From a virus: 64,000 nt of DNA. The position numbers were made by a program, and so were the translations under genes. The notes beneath the pieces were generated by a model that was not told the DNA's origin, searched no databases, and saw nothing but the letters and a program-made list of their open reading frames with translations. Of the stretch, positions 1 to 31,400 are shown piece after piece; position 1 is the first letter of the stretch; every line of letters begins with the position of its first letter. The stretch covers positions 3,919 through 67,918 of the IMG/VR virus record IMGVR_UViG_3300045934_000106, one strand, 5' to 3'.

Positions 1-210
1 GATGGCCTGCGCGATGTCGCACAGGATATTCTCGCGGCGAGCCTCTCGCCAGATGTCCGCCGCGCTCGTCGCGGTCAACAGCATCCGCCCGTCGACCGTG
101 TGCACTTCCGTGGCGATGGCGCTGCCGAGCATACCGTCGCGCACGCTGACAATGTGCAGCGGGTTCACGGCGCTGCGGCCGCCACCCGTCAATTCAATCC
201 AGATGAACAT
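1..210 (-). CDS. hypothetical protein (partial, runs off the left edge)
   Basis: ATG at 210 after a GGAGG RBS-like sequence; open frame MFIWIELTGGGRSAVNPLHIV... to the window edge. Confidence 0.55.
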   Translation of the reverse strand, partial: MFIWIELTGGGRSAVNPLHIVSVRDGMLGSAIATEVHTVDGRMLLTATSAADIWREARRENILCDIAQAI

Positions 211-214
211 GGGG

Positions 215-421
215 TCAGTCCTCCAGGGATGCGTCCGGGTGAATGATCGTCGCGCCGCCGGAGCGGCACGACAGGCAGGGTTGCAGCCACCGCGGCCCGG
301 CCAGCGAGACCAGATCGTGGTGGCAGTCGAGCGGAGCGCCACACTGCTCACAGCGCGGCGCCACGAGCGGGGGGAACACACGGTCGAGCAGACGGAGATA
401 CCAGCGTCGGATGATGCCCAT
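215..421 (-). CDS. small zinc-finger-like hypothetical protein
   Basis: 68 aa with CEQC and CLSC pairs; tightly packed after the methyltransferase. Confidence 0.55.
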   Translation of the reverse strand: MGIIRRWYLRLLDRVFPPLVAPRCEQCGAPLDCHHDLVSLAGPRWLQPCLSCRSGGATIIHPDASLED

Positions 422-427
422 GGGGGG

Positions 428-3304
428 TTAGGCCGCCTTCCGTGCGCGGTGTCCGAGGTTGGCCGCCAGCAGCGCAGCCGCGACGTGCGGCGGCACGGAG
501 TTGCCACACATCCGAGTCTGCGCCTTCTTCGAGAGCTTCGTGGGCACGGGCAAGCCGAGGTCAGTGACCGTGACGACGTGTTCGATTTCGTAGTCGTGCT
601 CAACGACTAGGCGGATCAAGAGTGAGCTCGCGCTTGACGTTGGCGCGAGAGTGGACCCACCGATGGCATCGAGCACAAAGGAGCACAAGGTTGTCCAGTG
701 CGAGGCGAAGCTCTGGGAAGGTTGCCCATCCGCCGATATGGTGCACTGCGTATCCGGGACCGCGGCGAACCCGGTCCAGGCATCGCCGGCAACAGCCACC
801 GTCTCGCTGGAAGACGGCGCGGCAGGCCCTGAGCCATGGCTTTGATGCGTAGAAAGCAAGCTGCTCTGGCGTACAGCCGCCCTTCCAGTTTGGCGCGCGT
901 GGACCGGTAAAGAATGCTCGCGAGCAAGCATTCGAGCAAAATCGCCGATGTCGGTAGGTAGGGGAAACGAGACGCCCTCGGCCGCAGAACTCGCAGACGA
1001 GGGTGACTTTTCTGGACTGCGTAGCACCAGAACGTGCTGCCCGCAGTCGATACGCGCATTCACGACTACAGGTGCGACGTTGTGGGCTTGAGGCTCGGAC
1101 GAGATGTGGCCGCGCGCAGACTTCGCACGGTCTCGACTCGCGAGGGTTTGGCGGCCGCCCGCCGCCTGGGTTGCGTGGTCGCGCCATACCTGAATCTCCG
1201 CCTCGGTCTTGAAACTAGGAAAACCCTGGCAGCGGAACAGCTCGCGCGGGGTCAGCATGCGCATCCCGATGTCGACGATGGCGTATTCCTCGCCGGCAAT
1301 CGTGACCGTGACCAGCCCGAAGCGCTCCTTGGTGGTGAGCGTGTCCACCGGCGCGTCGAGCGGACGGCCGGAGACGTTGGTCCCGAAGTACTTGACCAGG
1401 AAGGCCGTGACGAGCGCCTTGTTCTCGCGGCAGACGATGGTGTCGACCGGGCGCTGGAGCTTCTGACCGGTGGCCTCGTGACCGCCGTTGTGCTTCGCCA
1501 GGAACGCGGCGACGAGCCCGAAGCGGTTGGAGGTATGCAGGCTGAAGTCGATGCACTCGGCCGCCGTGCGATAGGGCTGGCGCTTCGGGCCGTGCGTGGG
1601 TTTCGGCCACACGATCGGCTGACCATCGAAGCGGACAATGACGAACAATCGCTTGCGGCGCGTCGGGGCGCCGTGCTCGTCAGCCACCAGCTCGCGATAC
1701 TCCACCACGCCGCCGAGGTTCTGGAGACGCGACACCCAGCGACGGAAACTCTGCCCCTTCTTCGCGGCGTTGGGTCGCCCGTCCTTGCCGAGCGGACACC
1801 AATCGCGGAACTCTTCCACGTTCTCCATGAACAGCATGTCGGGCGGGCGTCCGGTCGCTTTCTTCAGCTCGACGACGCAGCGGACCAGCTCCCACGCGAG
1901 CCCACGAACGCGACGCGCGCGGTTGCGGTCGCGGAACGGTCGACCGCCGCGCGCCTTCGAGTGATAGGTGCAGTTGTGCACGATGATGCCGTCCGCGACG
2001 AAGCTCTCGTCTTGGGCGACGCTCAGGTTGTAGACCGTGAACAACTCGGAGCCGGTATGGATGCGTTCGCGGATGGGCGCCCACAGCAGGCCGTCCTCGA
2101 CCGCAGTGTGCGCGTGCGATTCGGTGATGCTCTCGCGCCATTTCACCGACCAGGCTGGACGCACGTTGACGCGCCGCCCAGCGATCTCGTCGGGCTGATT
2201 GGTCCTCAGCACCACGTGCGCGGCGTGACCCAGCGAGGCGACCAGCGCCTTCAGCCCGAACGCGAGCGCCTTGGAAACGGTCGTCGCGATTGTCAGCGGC
2301 GTGCCGACGCCGTGCGCTACGCACCCGTCTCCGGACAGGTAGCCATCCAGAAACCACTGACGCGACTCGACCGACAGCCCAAGCAACCACCCAGGGATGG
2401 TTTTCTCTGCAGCACCGTGGCCGAAGTGCTCACGGAGCCATTCAACTAATCCCCGATGGCTCGTCGAGAACTGATAGGCGGTCCCTGTCTCCCGCTCAGT
2501 CCACGCCAACTCCCCTGACCGGCTGCGTGTGCCAGCGCGTGGCCACTGCGCCAGCGACTCACGGAGGTCGTCCGCCTCGTGGCGTCCGCAGGTGAGGACG
2601 AGTTCTGCGCGCACGTCTGTGAGCCGCGTCCAGCCGTCGGCGACGTAGCGACCGGCAAGCCAAAGCAGTTTGAAGTCGACCTGTAGTTCACGCTCGCGAT
2701 GCACCGGCACCGCAGGCGCAGCCGCCCCTGGGAATGTCGTCGGCGACGCCCAGTACTGGCCGCGCTCAAGGCTCTTCGCAGGCGCCCAGTACGCCTGGCT
2801 CAGGCGCCTCGCCATTCCGGCGCCGCTCGTGCGGTGCTTCACGAGGAAGGGATGCTCTCCACTGACGAACAGGCCGGGGTGACCGAGCCCACGCACCTGG
2901 AGTAGCGGGCGCTCAGTGCTCATCGTGTTCGTGACGCGGCGCCACCGTTGCTCGTGGGTCAGCACTTCCTCGCCAATTTCGATTTCCTCGATCGGCACGT
3001 AGCCGCGTCGCGCGAGCACCATCGTGCCGGCCGGGAAACAGTCAGGCGAGAACCAGGCGAAGCGGCAGTGCTTGCCCGTGAGCAACGTGCCGTAGTCGAC
3101 CGAGCGGATGTTGGTCTGCACGTGGCGCGTCTTCGGATGGTTCGCGGCGTGCATCGCGAGCGCTTCCGCGTCGTGGTTGATGGCCACGTCGGGCGAGCGG
3201 CCGGTGGCCCACTCGATCCCGACCGAGGCGCCACCACCACCCGCGAACCCGTCGATACAGCCTTCGTCGTCGTAGAGCCGGACTTGCGGAACGCGGGGCT
3301 TCAT
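428..3304 (-). CDS. dcm: DNA (cytosine-5) methyltransferase containing an intein and a second ~206-codon insertion
   Basis: Motif I FAGGGG, AINHD, motif IV SPD|C split by the intein, motif VI ENVEEF, motif VIII PTRRKRLF, C-terminal LTPRELFRCQGFP and RMCGNSVPP. Confidence 0.93.
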   Translation of the reverse strand: MKPRVPQVRLYDDEGCIDGFAGGGGASVGIEWATGRSPDVAINHDAEALAMHAANHPKTRHVQTNIRSVDYGTLLTGKHCRFAWFSPDCFPAGTMVLARRGYVPIEEIEIGEEVLTHEQRWRRVTNTMSTERPLLQVRGLGHPGLFVSGEHPFLVKHRTSGAGMARRLSQAYWAPAKSLERGQYWASPTTFPGAAAPAVPVHRERELQVDFKLLWLAGRYVADGWTRLTDVRAELVLTCGRHEADDLRESLAQWPRAGTRSRSGELAWTERETGTAYQFSTSHRGLVEWLREHFGHGAAEKTIPGWLLGLSVESRQWFLDGYLSGDGCVAHGVGTPLTIATTVSKALAFGLKALVASLGHAAHVVLRTNQPDEIAGRRVNVRPAWSVKWRESITESHAHTAVEDGLLWAPIRERIHTGSELFTVYNLSVAQDESFVADGIIVHNCTYHSKARGGRPFRDRNRARRVRGLAWELVRCVVELKKATGRPPDMLFMENVEEFRDWCPLGKDGRPNAAKKGQSFRRWVSRLQNLGGVVEYRELVADEHGAPTRRKRLFVIVRFDGQPIVWPKPTHGPKRQPYRTAAECIDFSLHTSNRFGLVAAFLAKHNGGHEATGQKLQRPVDTIVCRENKALVTAFLVKYFGTNVSGRPLDAPVDTLTTKERFGLVTVTIAGEEYAIVDIGMRMLTPRELFRCQGFPSFKTEAEIQVWRDHATQAAGGRQTLASRDRAKSARGHISSEPQAHNVAPVVVNARIDCGQHVLVLRSPEKSPSSASSAAEGVSFPLPTDIGDFARMLAREHSLPVHARQTGRAAVRQSSLLSTHQSHGSGPAAPSSSETVAVAGDAWTGFAAVPDTQCTISADGQPSQSFASHWTTLCSFVLDAIGGSTLAPTSSASSLLIRLVVEHDYEIEHVVTVTDLGLPVPTKLSKKAQTRMCGNSVPPHVAAALLAANLGHRARKAA
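600..1187 (-). CDS. HNH endonuclease with zinc-finger repeats, nested out of frame inside dcm
   Basis: CxxC pairs, FCSNAC, NWKGG, VFQRDGGCCRRC, VHHI...NLVLLCARCHRWVH; own ATG with a GGAG RBS. Confidence 0.88.
   Translation of the reverse strand: MARPRNPGGGRPPNPRESRPCEVCARPHLVRASSPQRRTCSRECAYRLRAARSGATQSRKVTLVCEFCGRGRLVSPTYRHRRFCSNACSRAFFTGPRAPNWKGGCTPEQLAFYASKPWLRACRAVFQRDGGCCRRCLDRVRRGPGYAVHHIGGWATFPELRLALDNLVLLCARCHRWVHSRANVKRELTLDPPSR
1973..3040 (-). mobile_element. intein with in-frame LAGLIDADG homing endonuclease, inserted just before the catalytic Cys of the methyltransferase
   Basis: Starts CFPAGTMV; block B SGEHPF; LAGLIDADG motifs LAGRYVADG and FLDGYLSGDG; ends VYNLSVAQDESFVADGIIVHN followed by C; splicing restores SPDCTYHSKA. 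Confidence 0.93.
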
Positions 3305-3756
3305 CGGACCAGCTCCTGAATCTTGTCGGCGATCCGCTCGACGTCGGTCGACGTGCTCGGGATGCCGAGGTTGGCCGATTGCATGACGTCACCGAGGCCG
3401 GATACGAGGTCGGCACCCCATGTCGGATTGGCCGTCCCGATGTTCCAGTCGCGCCCGGCGCCGGCAGACACCTGCAGGAACCCCGGGTATTCGACCGTCG
3501 CGGTGATGCCGCGCTTCGCGAGCGCGGCGACCACGGTCTGAAGGTTGACGGATGGCGCGGGTGTGCCGGTACTGAGCACCGGTTCATCGGCCGCCACGCC
3601 CATGTGCGACGTGCCGATCACGAACGTGCACAGGTTTTCCACAGCCTTGAGTTCGGCCAGGAGTTCGGCGTGCTCGTCAGCGCCGTCCGACGTCTGAATC
3701 ACGACGTGGGCCCGGCTGACGATGTCTTGCAACTGGCGGACAGTGAGCGTGTTCAT
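3301..3756 (-). CDS. hypothetical protein
   Basis: 151-aa ORF; its stop overlaps the dcm start (ATGA). Confidence 0.7.
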   Translation of the reverse strand: MNTLTVRQLQDIVSRAHVVIQTSDGADEHAELLAELKAVENLCTFVIGTSHMGVAADEPVLSTGTPAPSVNLQTVVAALAKRGITATVEYPGFLQVSAGAGRDWNIGTANPTWGADLVSGLGDVMQSANLGIPSTSTDVERIADKIQELVR

Positions 3757-3761
3757 GTGAT

Positions 3762-4022
3762 CTACTCCCAGCCGCGCAAGAAGCCGGCGATGTCGGGGCC
3801 CCAGACGTACCGCTGCGTGACGGTGCGACGGCGCGTGGTGAGTCCGACCTTGGCGCGTTCGAGCGGCGCTGACTCACGCACGAGCATGAGATTGACGAGC
3901 ACCGGGGGGATGCCCTCGGCGATGAGCGCGTCCGGCGTATACGCCTCGCGGTGACGCGCGATGAAGGCCAGCACGTTCCGCACGGCCGGCGTCAAGAGCG
4001 GTTGCACTTCTGAGTGTCTCAT
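3762..4022 (-). CDS. hypothetical protein, probably leaderless, first gene of the dcm operon
   Basis: ATG lies 7 nt downstream of a predicted extended -10 box. Confidence 0.65.
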   Translation of the reverse strand: MRHSEVQPLLTPAVRNVLAFIARHREAYTPDALIAEGIPPVLVNLMLVRESAPLERAKVGLTTRRRTVTQRYVWGPDIAGFLRGWE

Positions 4023-11378: not shown

Positions 11379-11693
11379 TCACCAGCCACCTCCCTGCGCT
11401 TCGTGCAAGCCCTCGCGGCGGCCGTCGGCGAACGCATCGCGCGCGTCGCGCTGCGCGCCCCGTTGCTCCTCGAACAGCTCTTTGCGGTGCCTCGCGGCCG
11501 TGACGGCGCGGTGTCTCAGCACGTAGGCGACACCGTCGAGCGCGTCGCAGAACTGCGCGAGTGTGAAGGCGCGCTCCCCGTAGGCGAAGGACGTCGCCGT
11601 CACGAGCGCGCCGAGTGACGCCATCCACTGGCAGCGCGCGCAGAGGGTGTCACCGGCCAGGATGTAGCCGCCGCAGTGCGTGCAGCGCGTCAC
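11379..11693 (-). CDS. hypothetical protein with N-terminal zinc ribbon
   Basis: CTHCGG...LCARC. Confidence 0.6.
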   Translation of the reverse strand: MTRCTHCGGYILAGDTLCARCQWMASLGALVTATSFAYGERAFTLAQFCDALDGVAYVLRHRAVTAARHRKELFEEQRGAQRDARDAFADGRREGLHEAQGGGW

Positions 11694-12859
11694 AGCCGCA
11701 CCAGTTCGGAGTATTCGGCCATGCCGGATCCGTCCTTCGGCTTGGCGAGGATCTCGACCGGGACCTTCTTGTCGCGGAACTCTTTCGCCTGGATGACGCG
11801 GGCGTCCACGTCATCCCAGGCGTAGTAGACGTTGTCCAAATCGTCGACGACGAGCGCGAAGTAGCGACGGCGCAGCGCATGCGCGGCAACGTACTCCTCG
11901 CTCTTGCCGCGCGTGCCATTCGACTCCATCTTCTCGACGGTCTTGATGTAGCGCGCGTTGACCGCTGGCTCGGGCGGCGTGGGCGGTTCGGGGATGCCGG
12001 CGGGCGGTTCTCCCTTACGCTGCGGCATCTGGATCTCGGCCTGCGCCTCGATCACTTCGGCGTCGTCAATCGGCGTGGCCGTCTCGGTCTCGCTGGCCAG
12101 TAAGCCCAGATCCTGCGGCAATGCCACTTCGGCGCGATCGTCGAGCGAGAGCGCCCGCTGTGTCTCGACCGACGTCGGCAGCAGCTTGCACAGCTGCTTG
12201 AGCGCCGTCTTCTTGAACATCCACTCGCGATCGGTGTCCCACGGTGACGAGCGCTTGGCCTTCACCGAAGCGGAGCGCGCCTTGATCTTCTCGACCTCGC
12301 GCGCGGTCATCACGACGATCTGGAAACTGCCGTCCTTTAACCGCGCTGCCGCCCACACGTGCGTGATCGGGCCCGGGTCTTCTTGTCCGTCGTACGGGAC
12401 GTGCTCCAGCATCGGCGACGTGCCACGCGAGTAGCGGAATTGGTCCTTGGCGTGCACGACCTCGGCGTCAATCGTCGACAGGTCCCCGGAACGACGGACC
12501 AGCGTCACCAGCCCGCGATAGCCGGGGATGAACTGCACCTCTTTGCGGTCCTTCTTGCTGTTCCAGAACGGCACGAGGTACGCCTGACCGAGGACGCCAT
12601 CGGGCACGAGCCCCAGCTGCGCGGCCTGGAACACGGCGCCCAAGAGCGTGATGTGGTCACACTCGAGGAGTTCTGGGTTGCGCTGCACCGCCGTGAGGAC
12701 GACGCGGATCATGTAGCTGACCGGAATGCCCTGCGGCAGGGCGGTCGCCAGGCTCTTCTCGGCCTGCTGCAGGAGGGTCCGGACGTTGGTGAACCGGTCC
12801 CTGGCCAGCGCCTGTTGAGGCTGCACCGGAACCGGCGCAGGAGTCGTTACGGTCGCCAT
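11690..12859 (-). CDS. recT: RecT-family single-strand annealing recombinase
   Basis: AAQLGLVPDGVLGQAYLVPF, QFIPGYRGL, PWDTDREWMFKKTALKQLCKLLP; GGAGG RBS. Confidence 0.93.
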   Translation of the reverse strand: MATVTTPAPVPVQPQQALARDRFTNVRTLLQQAEKSLATALPQGIPVSYMIRVVLTAVQRNPELLECDHITLLGAVFQAAQLGLVPDGVLGQAYLVPFWNSKKDRKEVQFIPGYRGLVTLVRRSGDLSTIDAEVVHAKDQFRYSRGTSPMLEHVPYDGQEDPGPITHVWAAARLKDGSFQIVVMTAREVEKIKARSASVKAKRSSPWDTDREWMFKKTALKQLCKLLPTSVETQRALSLDDRAEVALPQDLGLLASETETATPIDDAEVIEAQAEIQMPQRKGEPPAGIPEPPTPPEPAVNARYIKTVEKMESNGTRGKSEEYVAAHALRRRYFALVVDDLDNVYYAWDDVDARVIQAKEFRDKKVPVEILAKPKDGSGMAEYSELVRL

Positions 12860-12926
12860 GGCAGGACCTCCACTTGTCGGACGTGAGTGAAATCGGGGAT
12901 AATCATGGGCACTCGTCTCCATCTCA

Positions 12927-22429: not shown

Positions 22430-25400
22430 CTACCGCCCAACGGGCAAGCGATGGCGCGGCATGCCCTGCAGGCCGGCCTTCCCGGTCGCGAGGCGCGCGG
22501 TGTGCACCAACTCCTCGAGCGCCCGATCGAGGGCGGCGCGTTTCTGCTCCGGCGTCATCGCCTCCGGCGACGCGGCGTAAATCTCATCGATCCCGTCCCG
22601 AATCTCGTCAATCCGCCGCTTGCCGGCCCGGAGCCGATTGGCGCGGTCCCCGGTAAAGCCGGCGACGCCCCGCTGCCGGGTATCCGCCCGTTCGCCCCAG
22701 CGGCCCAGGTCCTGGTGCTCGGCCGCCAGCTCGCGGCCGCGGGTGGCATCATTCACCCTGGCCGCACGGCGCATCGCCTGCTCGGCGCCCGTCATCTCGG
22801 TATAGGCGTCGTAGAACGCCTCGATCGAGACCGACTGCGACGAGAACGCCGCATCACGATGGAAGACATCGGCCAGCGGTTTCACCACGAACGGTACGTC
22901 GTGGCGGTCCCGCGGCGCCCGTTCCTTGACCGCCGGCAGCAGCCCCAGCTTGCCCAGCACCGGATCGGCGATGTAGATGACCGCGATCCGGCCCATGCCG
23001 GCCGTGTAGCCGTAGAACAGGTGTTCAATCTTGGCCGGCGACCACTTCATCAGGCGTCCGAGCGCCTTCGCCGTCTCGCTGGTGAAGTCGTTATGCTGGT
23101 CCTCCTCGGGCAGGTCCAGGTCGAACGGTGACACGATATTCCGGTCGCGGAACGTGCTGTAGTTCGCCATCACTTCGAGAATCGGCAGCACCACGGTCGG
23201 CATCACCGAGACGACCGTTTGTCCCATGTCCGAGTCGCTCGGCCGCAGCCGCTTCCAGTGCTCGGCGTTCCCCATCACCTCGTGTGCCGCGGCCTCGGCG
23301 AGGTCCGCCGCATAGCCCCACTCGAACGGTTTCGGGATGCGGATGAAGTAGTCGGCGCCGTGGAATCTCAGGTGCCAGTAGGTGCGCTTCTCCCACGCCG
23401 GCAGTTCTTGATACTCGTCGTCGTCGTGGTTCCACCAGGCGAGGATGGCGGAGAACAGCATCATCGCGGCGACCTTCTCAAGCGTGCCGACCGGATCCCG
23501 GGCCACCGTCTCACCGATGCGGACGTAGCCCTGCACCCGCGCATTGAAGAACGCCGAATAGCGGTTCAACTCCCGGGTCCACCGGCCGCCGCGGCTGAAG
23601 TCCGTCGTGACATCCCGTGCCGCGAGCGCCGCCCGGGTCAGCGTTTCCTCGTTGATCGTGAACTGCTTGGCGCCGAACAGCCGTTTCAGGACGCCCTGCT
23701 CCACGCCGCCGGCTTCGAGCGCCAGCTTGAACTCGCCCATGCGCGTCGCCATCTCCAGCTGTGAGGACACCATTTGCATGAACTGCAGCGGGTGCATCGG
23801 CCAGTAGCGCAGCAGCGCCTTGGCGTCCTGGCGGTTCAACCGGCCGAGGGTTTCGCGGATGCGTTGGCGGTCCTGGCCCACCATCGCCGTCTGATCGATG
23901 CCGGAGGCGAAGAACTGTTTGGCCACCTCTGTGCCGCGCACCAGCTCAATGAGCCCGCGGGCGGTGTCATAGCCCGGGATGAACCCGTAGCGCGACTGCA
24001 GGAAGGCGACGAGCGCATCACGGGCCGGGTTGCGCGCGATGAAGTGTGGCGTGAGCGTGGCGCCCGCCCGCAGCACGCGCGTGAACGGCTCGACGAACGT
24101 CGCCAGCACGCTGCTCTTCAGGTTCGCCCCAATGCGCGTGATCGCCTCGTAGAGCTCGGGATTGTGGACGTCGTAGAACTCGCGGCGGCCGTCCCGGATC
24201 ACCGTCACGAGGGTCTGGCCGGGCGTGACGAACGTGGCCGGCGTGAACAGCGTCACCAGATCCCGATCGGTCAGGCCGGTCGCCTGGATAAAGTCCGCGA
24301 TCGCGGGGTCCTGGCCGGCGAACGCCTCGAGGATCGCCATCACGTTCACCGTGTCGGGGATCTGCGGGGCGGGGATCTTCTCCAGTCCGCCGAGCCGCGA
24401 GGACGCTTTCGAGCGGTCCGCCTGGTTGGCGAGCGCCATCATCGCGCGGTTCTTCTCGACCATATCGACGATGGCGTGCGTGTTGACGATGATCGACTCG
24501 AACGGGTTGACGATGTCGAGCCCGGATCCTTTGATCCGCTTCACGGGCACGGTGCGGTTGCCGATGCGCATCGCGCCGCTCATGCGCGCCTCGACCTCCT
24601 CCATCACCCGCTTGAACGGGATGTAGAACTCGTTCAGCTTCTTGATCTTGGCGATCTGCTCGTCGCTCATCGCGCCGTACTGGCGCGCGTACTCGAGCAG
24701 CGCATCCTGATAGGCGTAGACCGCGTCCCGGGCCTGCTCGAACGCGGTGAAGTCGGCCCGTTGCTTGGTGACCTTGATCGTCTCGATCGCCTCGGTGAGC
24801 GAGATGCCGGTTTCGACCGGCAGCGTGCGCTTCTTGGTGTCCTTCAGCTCCACCACGCGCAGCGCGACGAGGTAATTGCCGAATTTCTTCAACGTCTCGT
24901 CGTTCTTGGAGACAGGCTTGAGGGCGTCGGCGAGACTGCCGCTGATGAACTTCCCATTGCGCGCCCGCACGCCCCATTCGAGGAAGGCTTGGGCTTTGCC
25001 GGCCGCCCCACGCGCCAGGCGCGCGAGCACGTAGGCGTTCTGGCGGAAGGCCACCGCGGCGCCGTCACGCATCGCGTCGACCGCGCGCTTGATCGGCTGC
25101 AGGTCGTCGACGAGGTTCGTGGCCGCGTGGCGCAGCGCCGCCTTCGGGTCGGTCGCGGCGAGCCGGAGCCCGGTCGCCGGGCCCTTACCGGTGTAGTCGA
25201 TCCGCGCTTCGAGCCGCTCCGGGTAGGACATGCCGAGATAGCCCTGCACGTTCGTACGGGCCTCGTGCAGCGCCTGCTCGAGATCGGGCTTGGTCGCGAG
25301 CTGCTTCGTGAACTCGGCGAAATAGTTCGGCGCGGCCGCCTGCACCGCCGAGGGGTCTAGTAGCCACTCGCGGAAGAAGTTCGCGGCGCCCTCCCGGCGC

Positions 25401-28400
25401 ACCTCGCCGGCCGTATAGGACGGGCGGGACGTGGGCACACCCAGCGCATGCAGTTCCGCTTTCCACCGTTTGTCGTTGCGCTTAATGCCGAGGATGGAGA
25501 TGTCGAGCCCGTGGCCAGCCTCGTGGAAGATGGTCATCAGGTCGTTGGCGACCTTCACGCGGATCGACTCGACGTCGTCTTTGTAGATGCCGCGCGCGCG
25601 CTGGCGGAAGTGCTTTTCGCGCACCGGCACACCGCCCAACGCCTGGCGGATCTGGTTCACGATCGCGCTCGGGCGGAGGTTGGCCGAGACGGGGAGCCCG
25701 GAGCCCTTCGGCGGCGGCATTGGTATTGGGCGCGGCGGCACACTGACCGGCAGGGACGAGACGGATCCGGACGGCGTGTCGTCGTCGCTGTCCTCGTCGG
25801 TGTCCGCGGCCGCCGGCGCCGGCTCGGGTGCGGGCTGCAGCGCCGTCATCCGCTCGCGCACGCGCGATTCGAGGTCCCGCTTTTTCACCGCCTCCCAGAG
25901 GTCGTCTTGTCCCGTGCCAAGATCGGCCGCGCTCAGTAGGCGCCGGGCGTAAATCTCGACGGCCTTGTCATCGCTGGCGGACTCGGCGCGCTCCATGCCG
26001 AGCTCGGCGCGCAGTTGGAACAGTTCCGCTTCCTTCGCTTCGAGTTCGGCCAGCTGCTTAAATGGCGCGTCCAGTAACTTGCGATTGGTCTCGACCTCCT
26101 GCTGGTAGCGCTCGGTCCACTTCTCGCTGTCGGCGATCTCGCTGGCCAGTCGCTGCACCCCGAAGTACGCGTCGAGACTGCGCGTGTAGCTCGGGATCGT
26201 GCCCTGCAGCTTGGAGTGCGGCGAATAGCCGGGCGACGTGCCAACGGGGTCCTTCTCCAGGCGCACGGAGATTGCGGGCGTGTAGAACTGGACCCCCTCA
26301 TCGTTGTGCGCCTGCGTCCCGCGCGTGTACTCCAGCGTGAACGGCCCGGCGGTCCCCATCGCCATCTCGTCGGCGCCGACATATGCGGCGTCGAGCTTCA
26401 TCACGGCCTCGACGTCGGCCTGGAATTGCTTGCGCGCCTCCGGATCTTTCCAGTCGTAGGTGCGCGGCTCGGAGCGCTGGATGGAGTCCATCCCCCACTG
26501 CTTGCCGGCCTTCACTGTCAGCGTGACGGTGGGCTTCTCGTGCCACGCCTTCAGTTCTTCGAGCTTCGCCTTCAGCTTCTCAATGCGCGGATGCGCGCGA
26601 CCGAGGAACTCGACGGTCCGATCGATCTCGCCCTGCGCCGCCTGGCGCTTGCGCGACCAGTTCGTATACCGCGCCCGAAGCCCCTTCAGGTCGCGCTCGA
26701 TATTGAGCATCTTGAGCGTGCGCGGATCGCCGCTGGCGAGCGCGGCGGCCACCTCCATGTCGAGCTGCGACGGGTCGACGTCGTCCATCTTGTTCACTTC
26801 GCCACGGAGCATCTTGTAGATGAATCCCTGCTTGATGGCGAGCAGCGACCAGCGGTATTCGTCGAACGAGCCTTCGGTGACGTAGCGCAGGACCTCGATT
26901 TCCTCGTTCGTGTTGCCCTGGCGACGGATGCGTCCCTCGCGTTGCTCCATGTCGGCCGGGCGCCACGGCACGTCGAGATGGTGGAGTGCCACGAGCCGCT
27001 TCTGCACGTTCATGCCGACGCCACCCTTGGCGGTGGAGGCGATCATGATGCGTACGCGCCCGTCGTTCATCGCAGCAAAGAGGCGGCCCTGTTCTCCTGG
27101 CGTCTGCGCCTGCTGAATGAACGCGATCTCGTCGGCCGGGATCTTGTGCTCTCTCACGAGGACGCGCTTCAGCTCCTCATAGAGGTTGCGCATGTGGCCA
27201 GCGGCGGCGATGTCCCGCATCGCTTCGTCGAACTCGGCCTCTTCGTCAACGATGTCGTCTTTGGCCTCGTCGTCCGTTTCGTCGTCAGCGGCCGCCTCCT
27301 CCTGGACCGGCGCCGCGGCGGCCTGCCCGCCCACGACTGACGGCGGGAGCGGGGGCATTTCCTTGGCCGGCGGCACGCCCACGTCGAGGAACACGAGCTG
27401 TGTGCCCTTGGTGGCGGCGTGCTCGGTGTAGCGCTTCGCCAGTTCGCGGGCGGCGGTGCGAATACGCCCGTTCGGATCGTCTTCGGCCTCTGGCTTCACG
27501 AGCCGCATATCGATCGCGGCGAGGCCCGCCTGCGTCGTGATCAGGAGGTGGTTGTCGTCCTTCGGATCGACGCGGCCCGTTTTCAGCGCCTCAATGCGGT
27601 CGTCGAGTTCGTGCATGAACTTGGGCATCAGCGGGTGCGGCTTGAGTGCGACAACTGTTGGGCGCCCGCCTTTGAGCTTCGGCAGCTTCAGCACGCCGCT
27701 CTGCTCGAGGTCATCGGTCGTCAGCACGTCGGTGAAGCGGCGGAACAGTTTCGACAGTTCGCGCAAGTTGCTCCACTCGCGCAGCCGGATCCGTTCCTTG
27801 TAGCCGGTGCCCGCGGCCTTCTCCATGGCCGGCGACGCCTCGGCGTAGCCACTCATCCACGAGTCGAAGCCAGCCATGCCGAACCGGTCTAGCGTGTGCT
27901 GCGCCAGATACCGGAACATCGTGTAGAGCTCGGAAATAGCGTTACTGACTGGCGTGCCGGTCGCGAACATCAGGTTGCGGTAGTTGCTGGCCTGATTGAT
28001 CAGCCGCGCCTTCAGGAACATATCCATCGCGCGGTCGGAGTCTGATCCGCGCAGCCCGACGATCTTGTTGTGGCGGCTGGAGAAATAGAGATTCTTGAAC
28101 AGGTGCGCTTCGTCGATCAGGAGCGCATCGACGCCGAGCTTCTCGAACTCGACCGGCGCGTCTTTCGCTTGCTGGTCGAGCCGCTTCTGCATGCGCGTGC
28201 GCAGGCGAATGAGCGCCCGGACAATATCCTTCGTGCTCTCCTCGACGCCGCGGCCCATCACGCGCTGCTTCGCTCGCTTGTCTCCGTCGGCGGCCTCGGT
28301 GACGGCTTGGTCGAACTCCTCGACCGTCATATCGAGGCTGTCGGCACCCTCAGCCAGAAGCTGCGCCTCCTGCTCCTCGACGAACGCCCTAAGCGTGTCG

Positions 28401-31400
28401 AGCGTGACGCCGACGCGCACGTACTGCGACATCGGGAGGATCACGGCGTCCCAATCGTTGTTCGCAATGCGCGCGATGAGTCGCTGACGGTTCTTCTTCT
28501 CGAAGTCGGCTTTCGCCGGCACGATCACGCGGGCGCCGGGATAGAACAGCAGATAATCGCGCCGCCACTGTTCGATCAGGTGGTTCGGCACCACGATCAT
28601 GGGCTTGCGCGCCAGGCCGAGACGCTTCATCTCGCCGGACGTCGCGATCATCGCGAACGTCTTGCCGGCGCCGACGGCGTGCGCCAGGAGCGTATTGCCA
28701 GCTTGCAGGGCCCGCCACACGGCATTCTTCTGCCAGGGCCGCAGCTGGATCTCAGGGTTGCTGTTCGGGATGATCAGCTTCGACCCGTCGAATTGCCGTG
28801 GCGCCTCGCGGTTAAACTGCGCGTTATAGAGCTTGGTGAGCTGGTCCGCGACCTGCGCATCCGCGCGCCACCACGTGCTCCACTCTTCGCGCAGCTGCTT
28901 CAGCGACTGCCGGTACTGCTCGGTGGCCTGCGTGTCGACGTAGGTCGACCCGTCCGGGTTCTCACGCTTCACCGTCGGCAGTTTGCCGTTGAGAGCCTCC
29001 GCCAACCACTCGGAGTACACGAGGTTGGGCGGCATGAGGTCGTCGCGGCCCCACCCTGTGACGTAGTACTGCACCCGGTGCGCGTTGTTCACGAGCTTGA
29101 TGTCGAGGTCGCTGTTGGCGCCGCGCGACTTGAAGAACTTATCGAATGCCGTGATCGGCACCCACGTTGCGCCGAACGGTGCGTCGAAGTCTTCGGGCGT
29201 GAGCGGCGCCGGCTGCACCTTGTTCAGCGCTTCGACGTTCCGCCGGTAGGTGTGATCCTGCAGCGCGGCGGCTTCCGCCGCGGCGAGCTTCGTGACGACG
29301 TCACCGGACAGATACTCCTCGGTCGTCACCCATCCCTTCGTCGCCGGATCGCGGTAGACCTCGGCGCCGAGTTCCTCGGTCAGCTGCTCAGCGGTCTTGC
29401 CCGTGAGCTGCGTCATGTAGGGCAGGTCGACCTGCCCCTTCCATGCGAGGCTCTGCACGAGCGCGTCCTGCGCGCTGGCGGCGGTCGTCGGCTCTTCGAC
29501 CGGCTGAATCGTGCGCTTGGTGAAGAACGGCGCCAACCCCTTGAACTGCAGGACGGCGGGCTTGCCCTTCGTCTCCTTGATAAACTCGACATCTTCGAGC
29601 GCCAGGATGCGCGCCCCGTTGGGATCGAGGTTGATGACGCGCGCGTTCTCGCGCGTGTTGACGTGGCCGAGCGCCGACACGAAGCGGTCGTAGTGCTTCC
29701 GTAGATCCGCCTGGGCGGCGGCGAGGGCCTCATCCGAGGCGCGCGATACCATCGCGTCGAGCACCTGCTGATAGGCGTCGCGGAGTGGGACGAAATACTT
29801 GGCGCGGTCGAGCGCCTTGCCCTTCAGCTCGAGCGGCTTCATCGTGCCCTTGTCAAACACGTAGGCTTTGCCCTTGTCGATCAGGAGGGTGCCTTGTTTG
29901 GCATCGGCCGGCGCGTCCTTCGCCACCTTGCGCGGCGGCGTCTTCGACGGCTTATAGGCGCCGGTCTCGAACTGCGCGACCGCGGACGCAAGGCGCTCCG
30001 GCGTCAGGTCCCCGACGACGTTGTATTGCGCGTCGCGCGTGCGTTGCATCTTGCCGGATCCGTCCGCCGTGCCCAGCACCATCTCGGGATGCTTCGCGAA
30101 ATACTGATTGACCGGGAACTTCACCTTGTCCTTCGCCCAGAACTCCCCCTTGGTGGCTTTCTTGGCATCCCGCACGACCTGAATGGTCTCGGTGTAGAGC
30201 CACTGTTGTGCGGCAACGCCCTTGACGTTCGGATCTTTGCGTCGCAACACGATCACGTCCGTTACCACTTCGGTGCCGGCGGTGGACTGGAAGGATGTGT
30301 CCGGCAGGCGGAACGCGCCGAGGAAGTCCGCGCGTGCGTCGAGATACTTGCGCACCACGTCACTCTGGCTGTCCATGGTGTAGCGCGACGTGACGAACAC
30401 GACGAGCCCGCCCGGACGAACCAGATCGAGCGCCTTGCCAAAGAAGTAGTTATGCAGCGACCGCGACATCACCTGCTTCTCGGAACCGCTGAACGCCGGG
30501 TCAAAGACCGGGAGCCTCCCGAACGGCACATTCGAGATGACGAGGTCGAAATAGTGCTCCGGCAATCGCGCTTCCTGCAGGGGCGACGTCTGGATATGGG
30601 CGCCTTGATAGAGCTGACGCGCAATGGCCGAGGCAATCGGCTCCATGTCGACGCCGTAGAGCGTCGTGCGCGTGTTGGTGCGGATGCTGGCCGGCATCGT
30701 GCCGAAGAAGTGGCCCGTGCCGATGGCCGGCTCGAGGATCGATCCGCCCTTGAACCCCAGACGCTCGACCAGATTCCACATCGCGCGCGGCAGCTCGTTG
30801 AAGGAATAGTGCGCGTTGACGGTGGAGTCTCCCATCGCGCTCAGTTCCGCCTTCGTGAGGAGGCGATCCAGCTCCTGGCGCGCGAGCTTGTGCCGAGGAT
30901 CTGTGACGTGGTCGACGCCACGCGGGTCAACGACGGGCGCCAGGTTGGTGTGCCCCCAGCCGATATAGCGCGCGAGCACGGCCTGCTCCGCATCGGTGGC
31001 CATGCGGTTGTTCTCGGCCCGCAGCGCTTTCAGCAGGCGCAACGCCGCCATGTTGTCGTCGAGTTTCTTCGTCCATCCGCCTTCGGTGAGGACCTCGGCG
31101 TTGTCGATGACGAAGTGTCGCGGGGCTTGCCCGCGCGCGTGACCGGCCGCTACTTCGGGGTCTGTGGCACTGTCGGCGGTGTCCACATGAGCGGGGCTGC
31201 TTGCTCCCGCGCTTCGTGGAGCGGGAGCCCCTGAGCCCTCAACAGCAGCTCGTGCTCGTGTGCCGCGTTGACCGCGTTTCTGACCGCCTGTTCGACGTCC
31301 CTCGGGTTGGCTCGGTGTGCTCGTCTGGTCGGCGGGCTGTGCTCCAGCCACACCCGCAGCACCTCCGTCTCGATCCCCTCCAGCGGCGTCTTCGTCACGG

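What the first reader, a model, noticed from the sequence alone, without database searches (positions are those of the whole stretch)
599..1216. HNH endonuclease overprinted inside the methyltransferase, host frame open and no recognisable splicing element
Seen: the normally contiguous C5-methyltransferase motif QGFP-xDY-I...MCGNSVPP is split by about 206 codons of Ser/Ala/Thr-rich, non-protein-like sequence with no stop codon. The same DNA, read at +2 offset, encodes a complete zinc-finger HNH endonuclease (600-1187) with its own RBS and ATG, ending at the insertion boundary. The insert starts with Ser (SFKTEAEIQV, faintly like intein block A) but has no HN-C/S/T end. Almost no non-coding room exists for a group I intron core. 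CCTAGT occurs near both ends. Inference: this is a homing element that avoids killing its host gene by keeping the host frame open. It could be tolerated as a loop, removed by atypical protein splicing, or skipped by ribosomal bypassing.
Basis: partly seen in the sequence, partly recalled or inferred. Interest (0 to 1): 0.88.

Follow-up and report, generated by a model that had tools for sequence, protein, structure and literature searches.

The report
Hidden HNH gene inside cytosine methyltransferase
A selfish DNA-cutting (HNH) gene sits in a shifted reading frame inside this soil phage's cytosine-methyltransferase gene, whose own frame stays free of stop codons and is probably read straight through without splicing; this arrangement was first published in 2025 for other phage methylases, and this is a large, separate lineage of it.

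Summary
The 958-aa C5-methyltransferase ORF (428-3304, minus strand) carries a 206-codon, stop-free insert (599-1216, boundary good to one codon) between QGFP and DY of motif IX. A complete 195-aa HNH gene (600-1187) fills the insert in the other frame.

There is no intron or intein signal. In 45 of 45 non-redundant relatives embedded the same way (GC 31-64%), the methyltransferase frame has no stop across the HNH gene. The third frame has 2-21 stops. Six more distant HNH genes that are not embedded have 4-9 stops in the corresponding frame. The start codon lies exactly 29 nt after QGFP in 26 loci.

A profile of the host-frame insert finds 514 protein clusters. All 10 that I sampled are C5 methyltransferases.

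Bypassing and atypical protein splicing are not.

The kind is already published: the ShiLan domain (Genes 2025, PMC11855218), in actinophage N6/N4 methylases. This element differs from the one published example I could fetch in host enzyme class, insertion site, HNH lineage (26% identity) and frame offset. Earlier notes of this scan report the same arrangement on other DNA.

Verdict: a new member of a known, still untested kind. The host-frame peptide also shows signs of selection.

The parts
428..3304 (-). C5-cytosine DNA methyltransferase ORF, 958 aa including two inserted elements (stop codon at 428-430)
   Evidence: ORF list. PF00145 E 2.2e-15. Alignments with insertion-free homologues.
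3041..3304 (-). N-extein, aa 1-88 (FAGGGGAS motif I ... WFSPD)
   Evidence: Alignments A1 and A3.
1973..3040 (-). Intein, 356 aa (aa 89-444): Cys1 (CFPAGT...), two LAGLIDADG-like motifs, ends ...VHN followed by Cys+1 (CTYHSKARGG). A second, separate mobile element in the same gene.
   Evidence: Absent from 9 of 9 homologues aligned at exactly SPD|C (3, 6). Hint_2, LAGLIDADG_3 and Intein_splicing matches are all just below Pfam cut-offs.
1217..1972 (-). Extein segment, aa 445-696 (CTYHSKARGG ... ENVEEF ... IVDIGMRMLTPRELFRCQGFP), ending in the first half of motif IX
   Evidence: 1697 homologues with E<=1e-10.
599..1216 (-). Inserted element, 618 nt = 206 host-frame codons with no stop (boundary could be one codon further 3', at 596-1213)
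   Evidence: No Pfam match for the host-frame translation. No Rfam match.
1188..1216 (-). 29-nt leader of the element, upstream of the HNH start. It contains GGAG 9 nt before the ATG. In the host frame it reads SFKTEAEIQV, a predicted beta-strand.
   Evidence: The start is exactly 29 nt after QGFP in 26 loci. Host-frame codons 2, 6, 8 and 10 are hydrophobic in 20, 15, 25 and 21 of 26 loci, with synonymous codon variety. AlphaFold2 strand with pLDDT about 85.
600..1187 (-). HNH endonuclease gene, 195 aa plus TGA, in frame +2 relative to the methyltransferase (methyltransferase frame = HNH frame +1). Zinc-ribbon Cys pairs plus an HNH core.
   Evidence: PF01844. 55 homologues with E<=1e-3. Conserved Cys/His/Asn columns. 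The profile matches the solved HNH domains 6me0, 5h0m and 6ghc.
431..598 (-). C-extein, aa 903-958 (H-DYEIEHV ... KLSKKAQTRMCGNSVPP ...): second half of motif IX plus motif X
   Evidence: GNSV-type motif X is kept in the same frame in embedded relatives.

Best explanation
A mobile HNH endonuclease cassette has inserted into the phage's C5-methyltransferase gene inside motif IX, between QGFP and x-D-Y. The cassette is a 29-nt leader, a 195-codon ORF and a stop codon at its last bases.

It is removed neither from the RNA nor from the protein. Ribosomes translating the methyltransferase read straight through it in the host frame (HNH frame +1). This adds about 206 residues, and they then continue into motif X. 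The enzyme therefore stays in one piece.

The two ends of the extra peptide are beta-strands that probably pair. If so, the insert hangs off the surface as a stalked loop or small domain and the two halves of motif IX stay together.

The HNH protein is made separately, by internal initiation at its own ATG in the shifted frame. It presumably cuts insertion-free alleles at the conserved QGFP-DY coding sequence, so that repair copies the cassette in (homing).

What is shown: the anatomy, the stop-free host frame across 45 divergent relatives, the fixed geometry, the retention of motif X, and the lack of intron and intein features.

What is inferred: read-through translation, methyltransferase activity with the insert in place, strand pairing, HNH expression and HNH cleavage specificity.
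For: (1) Anatomy in the window.

(2) Stop-free host frame across relatives. Of 51 non-redundant loci whose HNH match spans more than 140 residues, 45 (window included) have 0 stops in the +1 frame across the HNH gene. The +2 frame has 2-21 stops. GC ranges from 31% to 64%. The other 6 loci (30-36% identity) have 4-9 stops in +1 and no QGFP or GNxV motif nearby. Permuting each gene's own synonymous codons gives a median P(0 stops) of 0.17 per locus and a summed log10 P of -37.5 over 44 loci.

(3) One long host ORF. In each of the 45 loci the open +1 frame extends past the HNH gene on both sides (open stretch 204-986 codons, cut short by contig ends in some). The motif-IX search found QGFP-type motif IX followed by a candidate HNH start 20-60 nt downstream in 33 of the 45 (34 carry the motif), and a GNxV-type motif X lies downstream in nearly all. 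L005, L015 and L084 are the same methyltransferase subfamily as the window, with both exons in one frame.

(4) Fixed geometry. The HNH start is exactly 29 nt after QGFP in 26 loci. The HNH stop lies within about 3-20 nt (read by eye from the listing) of the resumed host motif.

(7) Scale. A profile of the host-frame insert finds 514 representatives at E<=1e-3, 424 at <=1e-10 and 331 at <=1e-30 among 1.84 billion. All 10 long ones sampled are PF00145.

(5) No Rfam family within 1-4000 at E<=10 apart from a chance snoRNA match. No Hint or intein match for the insert.

(6) Signs of selection on the host-frame peptide. The leader has a hydrophobic alternation with synonymous codon variety. Excess wobble identity in the overlap is 0.048-0.118, against 0.020-0.049 in host exons at matched amino-acid identity. 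AlphaFold2 gives pLDDT 82-92 for parts of the insert.

(8) Public runs. A contig from an RNA library runs unbroken over the 3' junction (339-790). No joint skipping the insert appears in 2 RNA and 2 DNA runs.

(9) Mobility. The window's HNH is 60% identical to L085's, whose host exons are only 18% identical. The same-subfamily hosts L005, L015 and L084 show 52-55% HNH identity against 40-45% exon identity.

(10) The same reading was proposed for the published ShiLan domain (PMC11855218, sections read).
Against: Nothing here shows the protein itself.

- No product size, methylation activity or HNH cleavage was measured. The published precedent is also purely computational.
- From the window alone the open frame is unremarkable, given the HNH gene's own codon choice (P = 0.44-0.45).
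- The permutation P-values are multiplied as if the loci were independent, but the loci are related.
- The AlphaFold2 confidence for the insert may be an imprint of covariation in the overlapping HNH frame. I could not inspect contacts, so strand pairing is not shown.
- The excess wobble identity could come from RNA-level or codon-context effects, or from the element being younger than its hosts.
- RNA-library contigs may derive from contaminating DNA, and contigs cannot exclude a minor spliced form. The 5' junction is crossed by only 28 letters, below the tool's 31-letter rule.
- No strong, conserved Shine-Dalgarno sequence precedes the HNH start across loci.
- One relative (P0001) has the HNH ORF running in frame into motif X. 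I could not examine its DNA.
- About 100 fetched loci with only partial HNH matches were left out of the counts.
Confidence: 0.75

Rival explanations
1. The host-frame insert is not merely tolerated filler. It is itself a selected, folded module, either a self-closing clamp or a domesticated domain that modulates the methyltransferase. On this view about 200 codons truly encode two proteins. This extends the best explanation more than it competes with it.
For: The leader is not overlapped by HNH, yet it keeps hydrophobic residues at host codons 2, 6, 8 and 10 (20, 15, 25 and 21 of 26 loci) with synonymous variety (Ile ATT 11, ATA 5, ATC 4). Wobble identity excess in the overlap is about 2.4 times that in host exons at matched divergence. 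AlphaFold2 predicts the same strands and helices with pLDDT 82-92 from two different alignments. The host-frame peptides align across 32 loci.
Against: Conservation and covariation in the overlap are partly forced by the HNH frame. The model has no similar known fold (best Foldseek E 1.3). Segments 27-52 and 117-164 of the 274-residue model are below pLDDT 50. The patchy distribution across hosts points to a selfish element, not a fixed domain.
Confidence: 0.3
2. The insert is removed from the RNA by an unrecognised self-splicing or host-assisted intron. The open host frame is then a by-product.
For: HNH genes are commonly carried by group I introns in phages (general knowledge). The profile also matches the HNH domain of a group II intron maturase (6me0).
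Against: There is no Rfam match at E<=10. Only 29 nt 5' and about 0-3 nt 3' of the insert are non-HNH sequence, which leaves no room for a ribozyme core. An intron gives no reason for 45 of 45 stop-free host frames or for a length divisible by 3. An RNA-library contig runs unspliced over the 3' junction, and no joints were seen.
Confidence: 0.04
3. The insert is removed from the protein by atypical protein splicing (an intein-like element without recognisable motifs), or is skipped by ribosomal bypassing.
For: The host frame is open, as in inteins. The window's insert begins with Ser.
Against: There is no Hint or intein match. The first residues vary (S, F, F, N, E, D ...), as do the last (EH, RH, QH, SE ...), and there is no His-Asn plus Cys/Ser/Thr. 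The HNH gene in the other frame takes up 195 of the 206 codons, and no splicing-domain match was found in the host-frame peptide. The genuine intein in the same gene shows what one looks like here. Bypassing needs no open frame, and 618 nt is far beyond the 50-nt gene-60 gap (recalled).
Confidence: 0.03
4. The methyltransferase is simply dead or split by the insertion, and the open frame reflects composition or chance.
For: The genome has 66% GC, and long stop-free alternative frames are common. Single-locus permutation P is 0.44-0.45. Phage methyltransferases are dispensable.
Against: All 45 embedded loci are open, including loci at 31-37% GC with 19-21 stops in the third frame. Motif X stays conserved downstream in frame. 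In this genome, 0 of 10,191 windows of that length are open in that frame of real genes. The 6 HNH relatives that are not embedded have 4-9 stops.
Confidence: 0.02

Closest known systems
ShiLan domain: hidden out-of-frame HNH endonuclease in actinobacteriophage DNA methylases (ShiLan gp65; also Pacc40 gp60 and Applejack gp54/gp55). Sources: PMC9957025 (2023, passages only), PMC11855218 (2025; abstract and sections 3, 12, 19, 32 read), PMC12613952 (2025, passages only).
   Same: An insert of about 200 codons in a phage DNA methylase at a conserved site. The host frame is stop-free. A complete HNH gene of about 195-208 aa, with zinc-finger and HNH parts, fills the insert in another frame, starting a few tens of nt in and stopping at its last bases. 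No intron or intein features. Predicted to protrude as a loop or hairpin. Patchy distribution. The host gene also carries an intein. The proposed mechanism is the same and is equally untested.
   Different: Tested on Applejack (L164). Its host is an N6/N4 methylase (PF01555), not C5 (PF00145). Its HNH is only 26% identical over 146 aa, pairwise E 0.002. Its frame offset is the opposite: there the HNH is at methylase frame +1 (host = HNH +2, with 9 stops in HNH +1), whereas here the HNH is at +2 (host = HNH +1). Here the site is motif IX of C5 enzymes, the lineage spans at least 514 clusters at 50% identity, and the hosts are not actinophages. No Mycobacterium phage appears among the 10 named organism groups or the 40 records listed for the methyltransferase relatives. 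I could not see the papers' supplements or repository, which may list C5 cases.
Inteins with homing endonuclease domains
   Same: An in-frame mobile insertion at a conserved motif, translated with the host protein. A genuine one sits in this same gene (1973-3040).
   Different: Inteins excise themselves through a Hint domain, and the endonuclease is in the same frame. Here there is no Hint match, no conserved splice residues, and the nuclease is in another frame.
Group I intron-encoded HNH homing endonucleases of phages, such as I-HmuI (recalled; I-HmuI is also cited in PMC11855218)
   Same: An HNH homing gene interrupts a conserved phage gene at a conserved site.
   Different: Those rely on a ribozyme core and RNA splicing, and they usually break the host frame. 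Here there is no room for a core, no Rfam match, and the host frame is conserved as open.
Free-standing homing endonuclease genes that split a host gene into two polypeptides, such as mobE in the Aeromonas phage Aeh1 nrdA (recalled from memory, not checked here)
   Same: A nuclease gene without intron or intein is inserted inside a coding region, and the host function survives.
   Different: There the host gene becomes two ORFs with a stop and a restart. Here it stays one continuous ORF.

Membership tests
ShiLan-type hidden out-of-frame HNH insertion element (the kind) | [quoted passage not shown] | tested here: met
   QGFP-x-x-Y is contiguous in L001-L003 and in P0057, P0100, P0133, P0070 and P0153. 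958 - 356 - 206 = 396 aa, the length of P0057 and P0078.
ShiLan-type hidden out-of-frame HNH insertion element (the kind) | Host reading frame free of stops through the whole insert, and conserved as such in relatives | tested here: met
   Window. Relatives: 45 of 45 embedded non-redundant loci.
ShiLan-type hidden out-of-frame HNH insertion element (the kind) | A complete HNH ORF in another frame fills nearly the whole insert (start shortly after the 5' junction, stop at the 3' end) | tested here: met
   HNH ORF 600-1187 within insert 599-1216. PF01844. Same geometry in 33 loci.
ShiLan-type hidden out-of-frame HNH insertion element (the kind) | No detectable intron or intein features | tested here: met
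   Rfam scan at E<=10: nothing relevant. Pfam on the host-frame insert: 0 families.
ShiLan-type hidden out-of-frame HNH insertion element (the kind) | Patchy distribution, with the element less diverged than or discordant with its hosts (mobility) | tested here: inconclusive
   Window HNH against L085: 60% identity, with host exons at 18%. Against same-subfamily hosts: 52-55% HNH and 40-45% exons. The overall correlation is 0.58. No tree test was run, and no near-identical insertion-free allele of this phage was found.
ShiLan/Applejack element as a sequence family (homology) | Clear sequence relationship of the HNH and of the host methylase to the actinophage examples | tested here: not met
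   HNH 26% identical, pairwise E 0.002. Host is PF01555 there and PF00145 here. Opposite frame offset. Only Applejack was fetched; the ShiLan sequence itself was not compared.
HNH endonuclease (PF01844) | HNH core with catalytic His, Asn and His, plus CxxC zinc ligands | tested here: met
   E 4.3e-9, above the cut-off. H149, H150, N166, H175, H179 and the Cys pairs are invariant in 13 sequences. PDB profile hits to 5h0m and 6me0.
C5-cytosine DNA methyltransferase (PF00145) | Motifs I (FxGxG), IV (PC/DC), VI (ENV), IX (QGFP) and X (GNSV), in order and in one frame | tested here: met
   FAGGGG, SPDC, ENVEEF, QGFP and GNSVPP are all present. The motif names are recalled; their positions come from the alignments. 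Activity was not tested.
Intein (for the 599-1216 insert) | Hint splicing domain; N-terminal Cys/Ser; C-terminal His-Asn followed by Cys/Ser/Thr | tested here: not met
   No Hint match. The insert ends VVEH|DY. The ends vary among relatives.
Group I / group II intron | Ribozyme core detectable by covariance model; non-coding RNA of about 200 nt or more | tested here: not met
   No Rfam hit. Only about 30 nt lie outside the HNH ORF.
Programmed translational bypassing (T4 gene 60 type) | Matched take-off and landing codons, a stop after take-off, and a short coding gap | tested here: not met
   There is no stop at the junction. The CCTAGT pair would land in the wrong frame and is chance. A conserved open frame is not needed for bypassing. 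The defining features are recalled.

The most novel reading that the evidence does not exclude
This is an independent invention of the 'translate-through' lifestyle for a homing endonuclease. It uses the opposite frame offset from the one published actinophage example I could fetch (Applejack), and it targets motif IX of C5 methyltransferases. The host-frame reading has itself evolved into a selected peptide: its conserved first and last beta-strands zip together and hold the split motif in place. That would be splicing replaced by folding, with about 200 codons truly encoding two proteins in at least 500 protein clusters across phages of very different GC content.
Probability: 0.3. Interest if true: 0.72.

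Novelty: new member of a known kind. Interest (0 to 1): 0.5.

Why it matters
Homing endonuclease genes were thought to survive inside genes only with the help of an intron or an intein, or else by sitting between genes. A third way, being translated straight through in the host frame, was proposed only in 2025 from a few actinophage methylases. It has never been tested at the bench.

This window shows that the same strategy exists in a different enzyme class, at a different conserved site and with a different frame offset. It also shows the strategy is common: 514 clusters of called proteins, and 45 of 45 DNA loci with the host frame intact.

That gives a much stronger statistical case that selection keeps the host frame open. 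It points to a structural adaptation, the conserved end strands, that could explain why the insert is tolerated. It also offers many natural variants for experiments.

There is a practical consequence too. Gene callers report either the methyltransferase or the HNH gene, not both, so these nucleases are systematically missed or the methyltransferases are mis-split.

Tried and rejected
**CCTAGT direct repeat as a junction or recombination signal.** It is present at 1219-1214 and 611-606, but it is chance-level (9.5% of shuffles) and 608 nt apart, which is not a multiple of 3. Deletion between the copies would read QGFPSR-stop (the reading is mine).

**Stop-depletion test on the single sequence.** Not significant (P = 0.44-0.45). 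It became meaningful only across relatives.

**Rfam.** Only a trypanosomatid snoRNA at E 2.7, inside the intein region. I treat it as chance.

**Foldseek of the host-frame model against the PDB.** No match at E<=0.001; the best was E 1.3.

**Cultured-phage collection.**
- By tblastn, the nearest HNH relatives are 27-35% identical (haloviruses, a Bacillus phage), so no cultured example of this lineage was found there.
- 75 weak rows and 87 rows were not listed to me.

**P0001 (HNH ORF fused in frame to motif X).** Its DNA was not among my loci and could not be fetched, so it stays unexplained.

**RNA-library contigs.**
- They do not cover about 841-1188 in X16.
- They do not cover several stretches in X20.
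- I draw no conclusion from those holes.

**Joints with intervening letters in DNA runs** (1371>3012 and 2721>2297, table 5c). These lie in or around the intein region, at low depth. I did not interpret them.

**Not used.** Complex prediction and the protein-atlas search were not needed. I ran no tree or AU test of element against host.

**Not seen.** The supplements and the GitHub repository of the two Gogarten-lab papers. They may list further out-of-frame HNH cases, possibly in C5 enzymes, and this bears on the novelty claim. Searches for print precedents.

**Rows dropped before the counts.** Of 160 loci fetched, only those with a plus-strand HNH match spanning more than 140 query residues were analysed. 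After removing identical HNH segments, 51 remained, window included. The rest match only the C-terminal HNH core and were not examined.

Full report
**What is there**

The window is 64 kb of a 67.9-kb single-contig genome with about 66% GC. Near-identical DNA occurs in soil metagenome runs.

On the minus strand a single ORF, 428-3304, encodes 958 aa and matches the C5-cytosine methyltransferase family PF00145. Three phage homologues and six metagenomic homologues of 387-416 aa show that two segments are extra.

- The first is a 356-aa intein at SPD|C (aa 89-444, window 1973-3040). It has Cys1, LAGLIDADG-like motifs, a ...VHN end and Cys+1.
- The second is the reported insert. Homologues read QGFP-x-x-Y without a break. 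The window has 207 residues between QGFP and DYEIE, which means 206 inserted codons (599-1216, or one codon further 3').

The arithmetic fits: 958 - 356 - 206 = 396 aa, the length of the closest insertion-free homologues, P0057 and P0078.

Read in frame +2, the insert holds a 195-aa ORF (600-1187). It matches PF01844 (E 4.3e-9) and keeps every invariant Cys, His and Asn of its relatives. Its ATG lies 29 nt after the QGFP codons, with GGAG 9 nt upstream. Its TGA overlaps the last host-frame codon of the insert.

The host-frame translation of the insert matches no Pfam family. No Rfam family matches within 1-4000 at E<=10, apart from a chance snoRNA hit.

**Is the open host frame more than chance?**

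From this sequence alone, the case is weak. If the HNH gene's own synonymous codons are permuted, the host frame stays open in 44-45% of trials.

The HNH gene does have unusual codon choice, however. Its GC3 is 0.60, against 0.84 in the flanking methyltransferase exons. In 54 putative genes of this genome, 0 of 10,191 overlapping 206-codon windows are open in the +1 frame, against 928 of 10,191 in the +2 frame.

The decisive test uses relatives. With an alignment of HNH homologues I fetched 80 viral and 80 metagenomic loci. I kept loci whose HNH match spans more than 140 residues and removed identical copies, which left 51 including the window. About 100 loci with only partial matches were dropped.

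- In 45 of the 51 loci, the frame +1 of the HNH gene has no stop at all across the gene. The +2 frame has 2-21 stops. These 45 loci range from 31% to 64% GC. One example is L089: 31% GC, 0 stops in +1 and 21 in +2.
- The other 6 loci are the most distant HNH relatives (30-36% identity). They have 4-9 stops in +1 and no methyltransferase motif nearby.

The own-codon permutation is conservative, because codon choice has itself been shaped by selection. It gives a median P of 0.17 per locus and a summed log10 P of -37.5 over 44 loci. That sum treats the loci as independent, which is only roughly true.

**The open frame is always a methyltransferase**

In the 45 loci the open +1 stretch extends past the HNH gene on both sides (204-986 codons in all, truncated by contig ends in some). 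Upstream it carries ...TP.ECERLQGFP or ...PRELF.AQGFP. Downstream it carries ...RYKALGNSMAVPV or ...K.AQ.RMCGNSV. The element therefore sits at the same structural site, between QGFP and x-[WYF]-T or x-D-Y of motif IX, in at least two C5 subfamilies.

L005, L015 and L084 belong to the window's subfamily and have the same arrangement.

The geometry is fixed. The motif-IX search found QGFP followed by a candidate HNH start 20-60 nt later in 33 loci. In 26 of them the start is exactly 29 nt later. The HNH stop lies about 3-20 nt (read by eye) before the host motif resumes.

A profile of the host-frame insert alone (A6, 32 sequences) finds 514 representatives at E<=1e-3, 424 at <=1e-10 and 331 at <=1e-30 among 1.84 billion cluster representatives. 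In the rows I checked, about 40-60 residues follow the match. All 10 long representatives that I sampled are PF00145, and one also carries an intein.

**Mechanism**

A conserved open frame, a length divisible by three and a retained motif X make sense only if ribosomes read through the element and the C-terminal motif is needed in the same polypeptide.

- An intron would not need this, and there is no room for a ribozyme.
- An intein would need a Hint domain and conserved junction residues. Neither is present.
- Bypassing needs no open frame.

Two further observations suggest that the host-frame peptide is more than filler.

1. The 29-nt leader is not overlapped by the HNH ORF. Yet in the host frame it keeps hydrophobic residues at codons 2, 6, 8 and 10 (20, 15, 25 and 21 of 26 loci), with synonymous variety (Ile as ATT 11, ATA 5, ATC 4).
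2. At identical HNH residues, the wobble base (the second codon position of the host frame) is shared more often than composition predicts. The excess is 0.048, 0.094 and 0.118 in three identity bands. The flanking host exons show 0.020, 0.036 and 0.049.

AlphaFold2 was run on two alignments. A4 covered window aa 445-958 with 107 sequences, of which only 4 cover the insert. A5 covered the insert plus flanks with 32 sequences. Both predict the same elements: an N-terminal strand (pLDDT about 85), a hairpin, two helices and a C-terminal strand (pLDDT 82-92). Two long low-confidence stretches separate them. Foldseek finds no similar solved fold.

Two caveats apply. Covariation in the overlapping HNH frame can leak into the host-frame alignment. 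And I could not inspect contacts, so pairing of the two end strands is an inference.

**Public reads**

The region occurs in soil metagenomes. Two metatranscriptome libraries hold parts of it.

- One RNA-library contig (452 nt, no differences) runs from 339 to 790 across the 3' junction.
- No joint skipping the insert appears in 2 RNA and 2 DNA runs.
- A DNA contig (577-1473) spans the whole insert.

DNA carry-over in RNA libraries cannot be excluded, so this is weak support for the absence of splicing.

**Mobility**

The window's HNH is closest (60%, 57%) to HNH genes in Dcm-type hosts whose exons are only 18-25% identical to the window's. HNH genes in same-subfamily hosts are 52-55% identical, with exons at 40-45%. 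Overall, the correlation between HNH identity and exon identity is 0.58. This fits occasional movement between methyltransferase subfamilies, but I ran no tree test. There is no second HNH copy in this genome.

**Comparison with what is known**

The arrangement is published. The ShiLan domain was described as an enigmatic insert in 2023 (PMC9957025; passages read). [quoted passage not shown] A 2025 genome announcement annotates one in phage Applejack (PMC12613952; passages). [quoted passage not shown] Two broader searches found no C5 case.

I fetched Applejack gp54/gp55.

- Its host is an N6/N4 methylase, PF01555.
- Its HNH is 26% identical to the window's, pairwise E 0.002.
- Its frame offset is the opposite. 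The host frame is HNH +2, and HNH +1 has 9 stops.

The window's element therefore works like the ShiLan element but is not a sequence relative of the one published example I could fetch (Applejack). I file it as a new member, in fact a large separate lineage, of a known kind. Earlier notes of this scan describe the same arrangement in C5 methyltransferases of other genomes. They agree with my reading, but they are not independent evidence.

**Verdict**

The novelty is reduced by the 2025 paper.

What this adds is a strong multi-locus case for selection on the host frame, a different enzyme class, site and frame offset, the scale of the lineage, and hints that the read-through peptide is itself shaped by selection. 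No experiment yet shows read-through, activity or homing for any element of this kind.

Noticed in passing
window 1973-3040 (-): The same methyltransferase gene also carries a 356-aa intein at SPD|C. It has Cys1, two LAGLIDADG-like motifs, a VHN end and Cys+1. Its Pfam Hint_2, LAGLIDADG_3 and Intein_splicing scores all fall just below the cut-offs. So one gene hosts two different selfish elements, as in ShiLan gp65. P0290, a relative carrying the HNH insert, also has an intein.
   Followed up: partly
window 22430-36526 (-): A giant 4698-aa ORF with LPD38 (large polyvalent protein domain), 2'-5' RNA ligase, and SNF2/ResIII helicase plus Helicase_C domains. It is a phage 'polyvalent protein'.
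   Followed up: no
window 11690-12922 (-): A RecT-family recombinase (PF03837, E 2e-45). A phage-encoded recombination function like this could serve repair-mediated homing of the two elements.
   Followed up: no
protein P0001 (metagenome; DNA not retrieved): In this relative (55% identical HNH) the HNH ORF does not stop at the junction. It runs in frame into the methyltransferase's motif X (...FIRRIDVGKALTKTAQIKMCGNSV...). This could be a frame-shifted variant, an HNH-motif X fusion or an assembly error.
   Followed up: partly
window about 1236, run X20 record 17 (table 7): A 231-nt contig from an RNA library matches 1236-1276 with 3 differences and then diverges. By my hand translation of the printed loose end it reads ...F-L-A-Q-G-F-P-R-S-Y-V. 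That would be an insertion-free relative of the methyltransferase in the same kind of soil sample.
   Followed up: no
L084 3473-4561; L010, L018, L004, L024: Some elements are longer: an extra N-terminal zinc-ribbon in the HNH gene, or leaders of 50-53 nt. Their host frames are still stop-free, so the constraint holds across length variants. The window, L005, L015 and P0001 lack the N-terminal CxCG...SQVAKxCxxC ribbon that most relatives have.
   Followed up: partly
window 1371-3012 and 2297-2721, DNA runs X7 and X10 (table 5c): Low-depth contigs join distant points in or around the intein region, with 17-29 other letters in between. They may come from related methyltransferases with a different or absent intein.
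   Followed up: no
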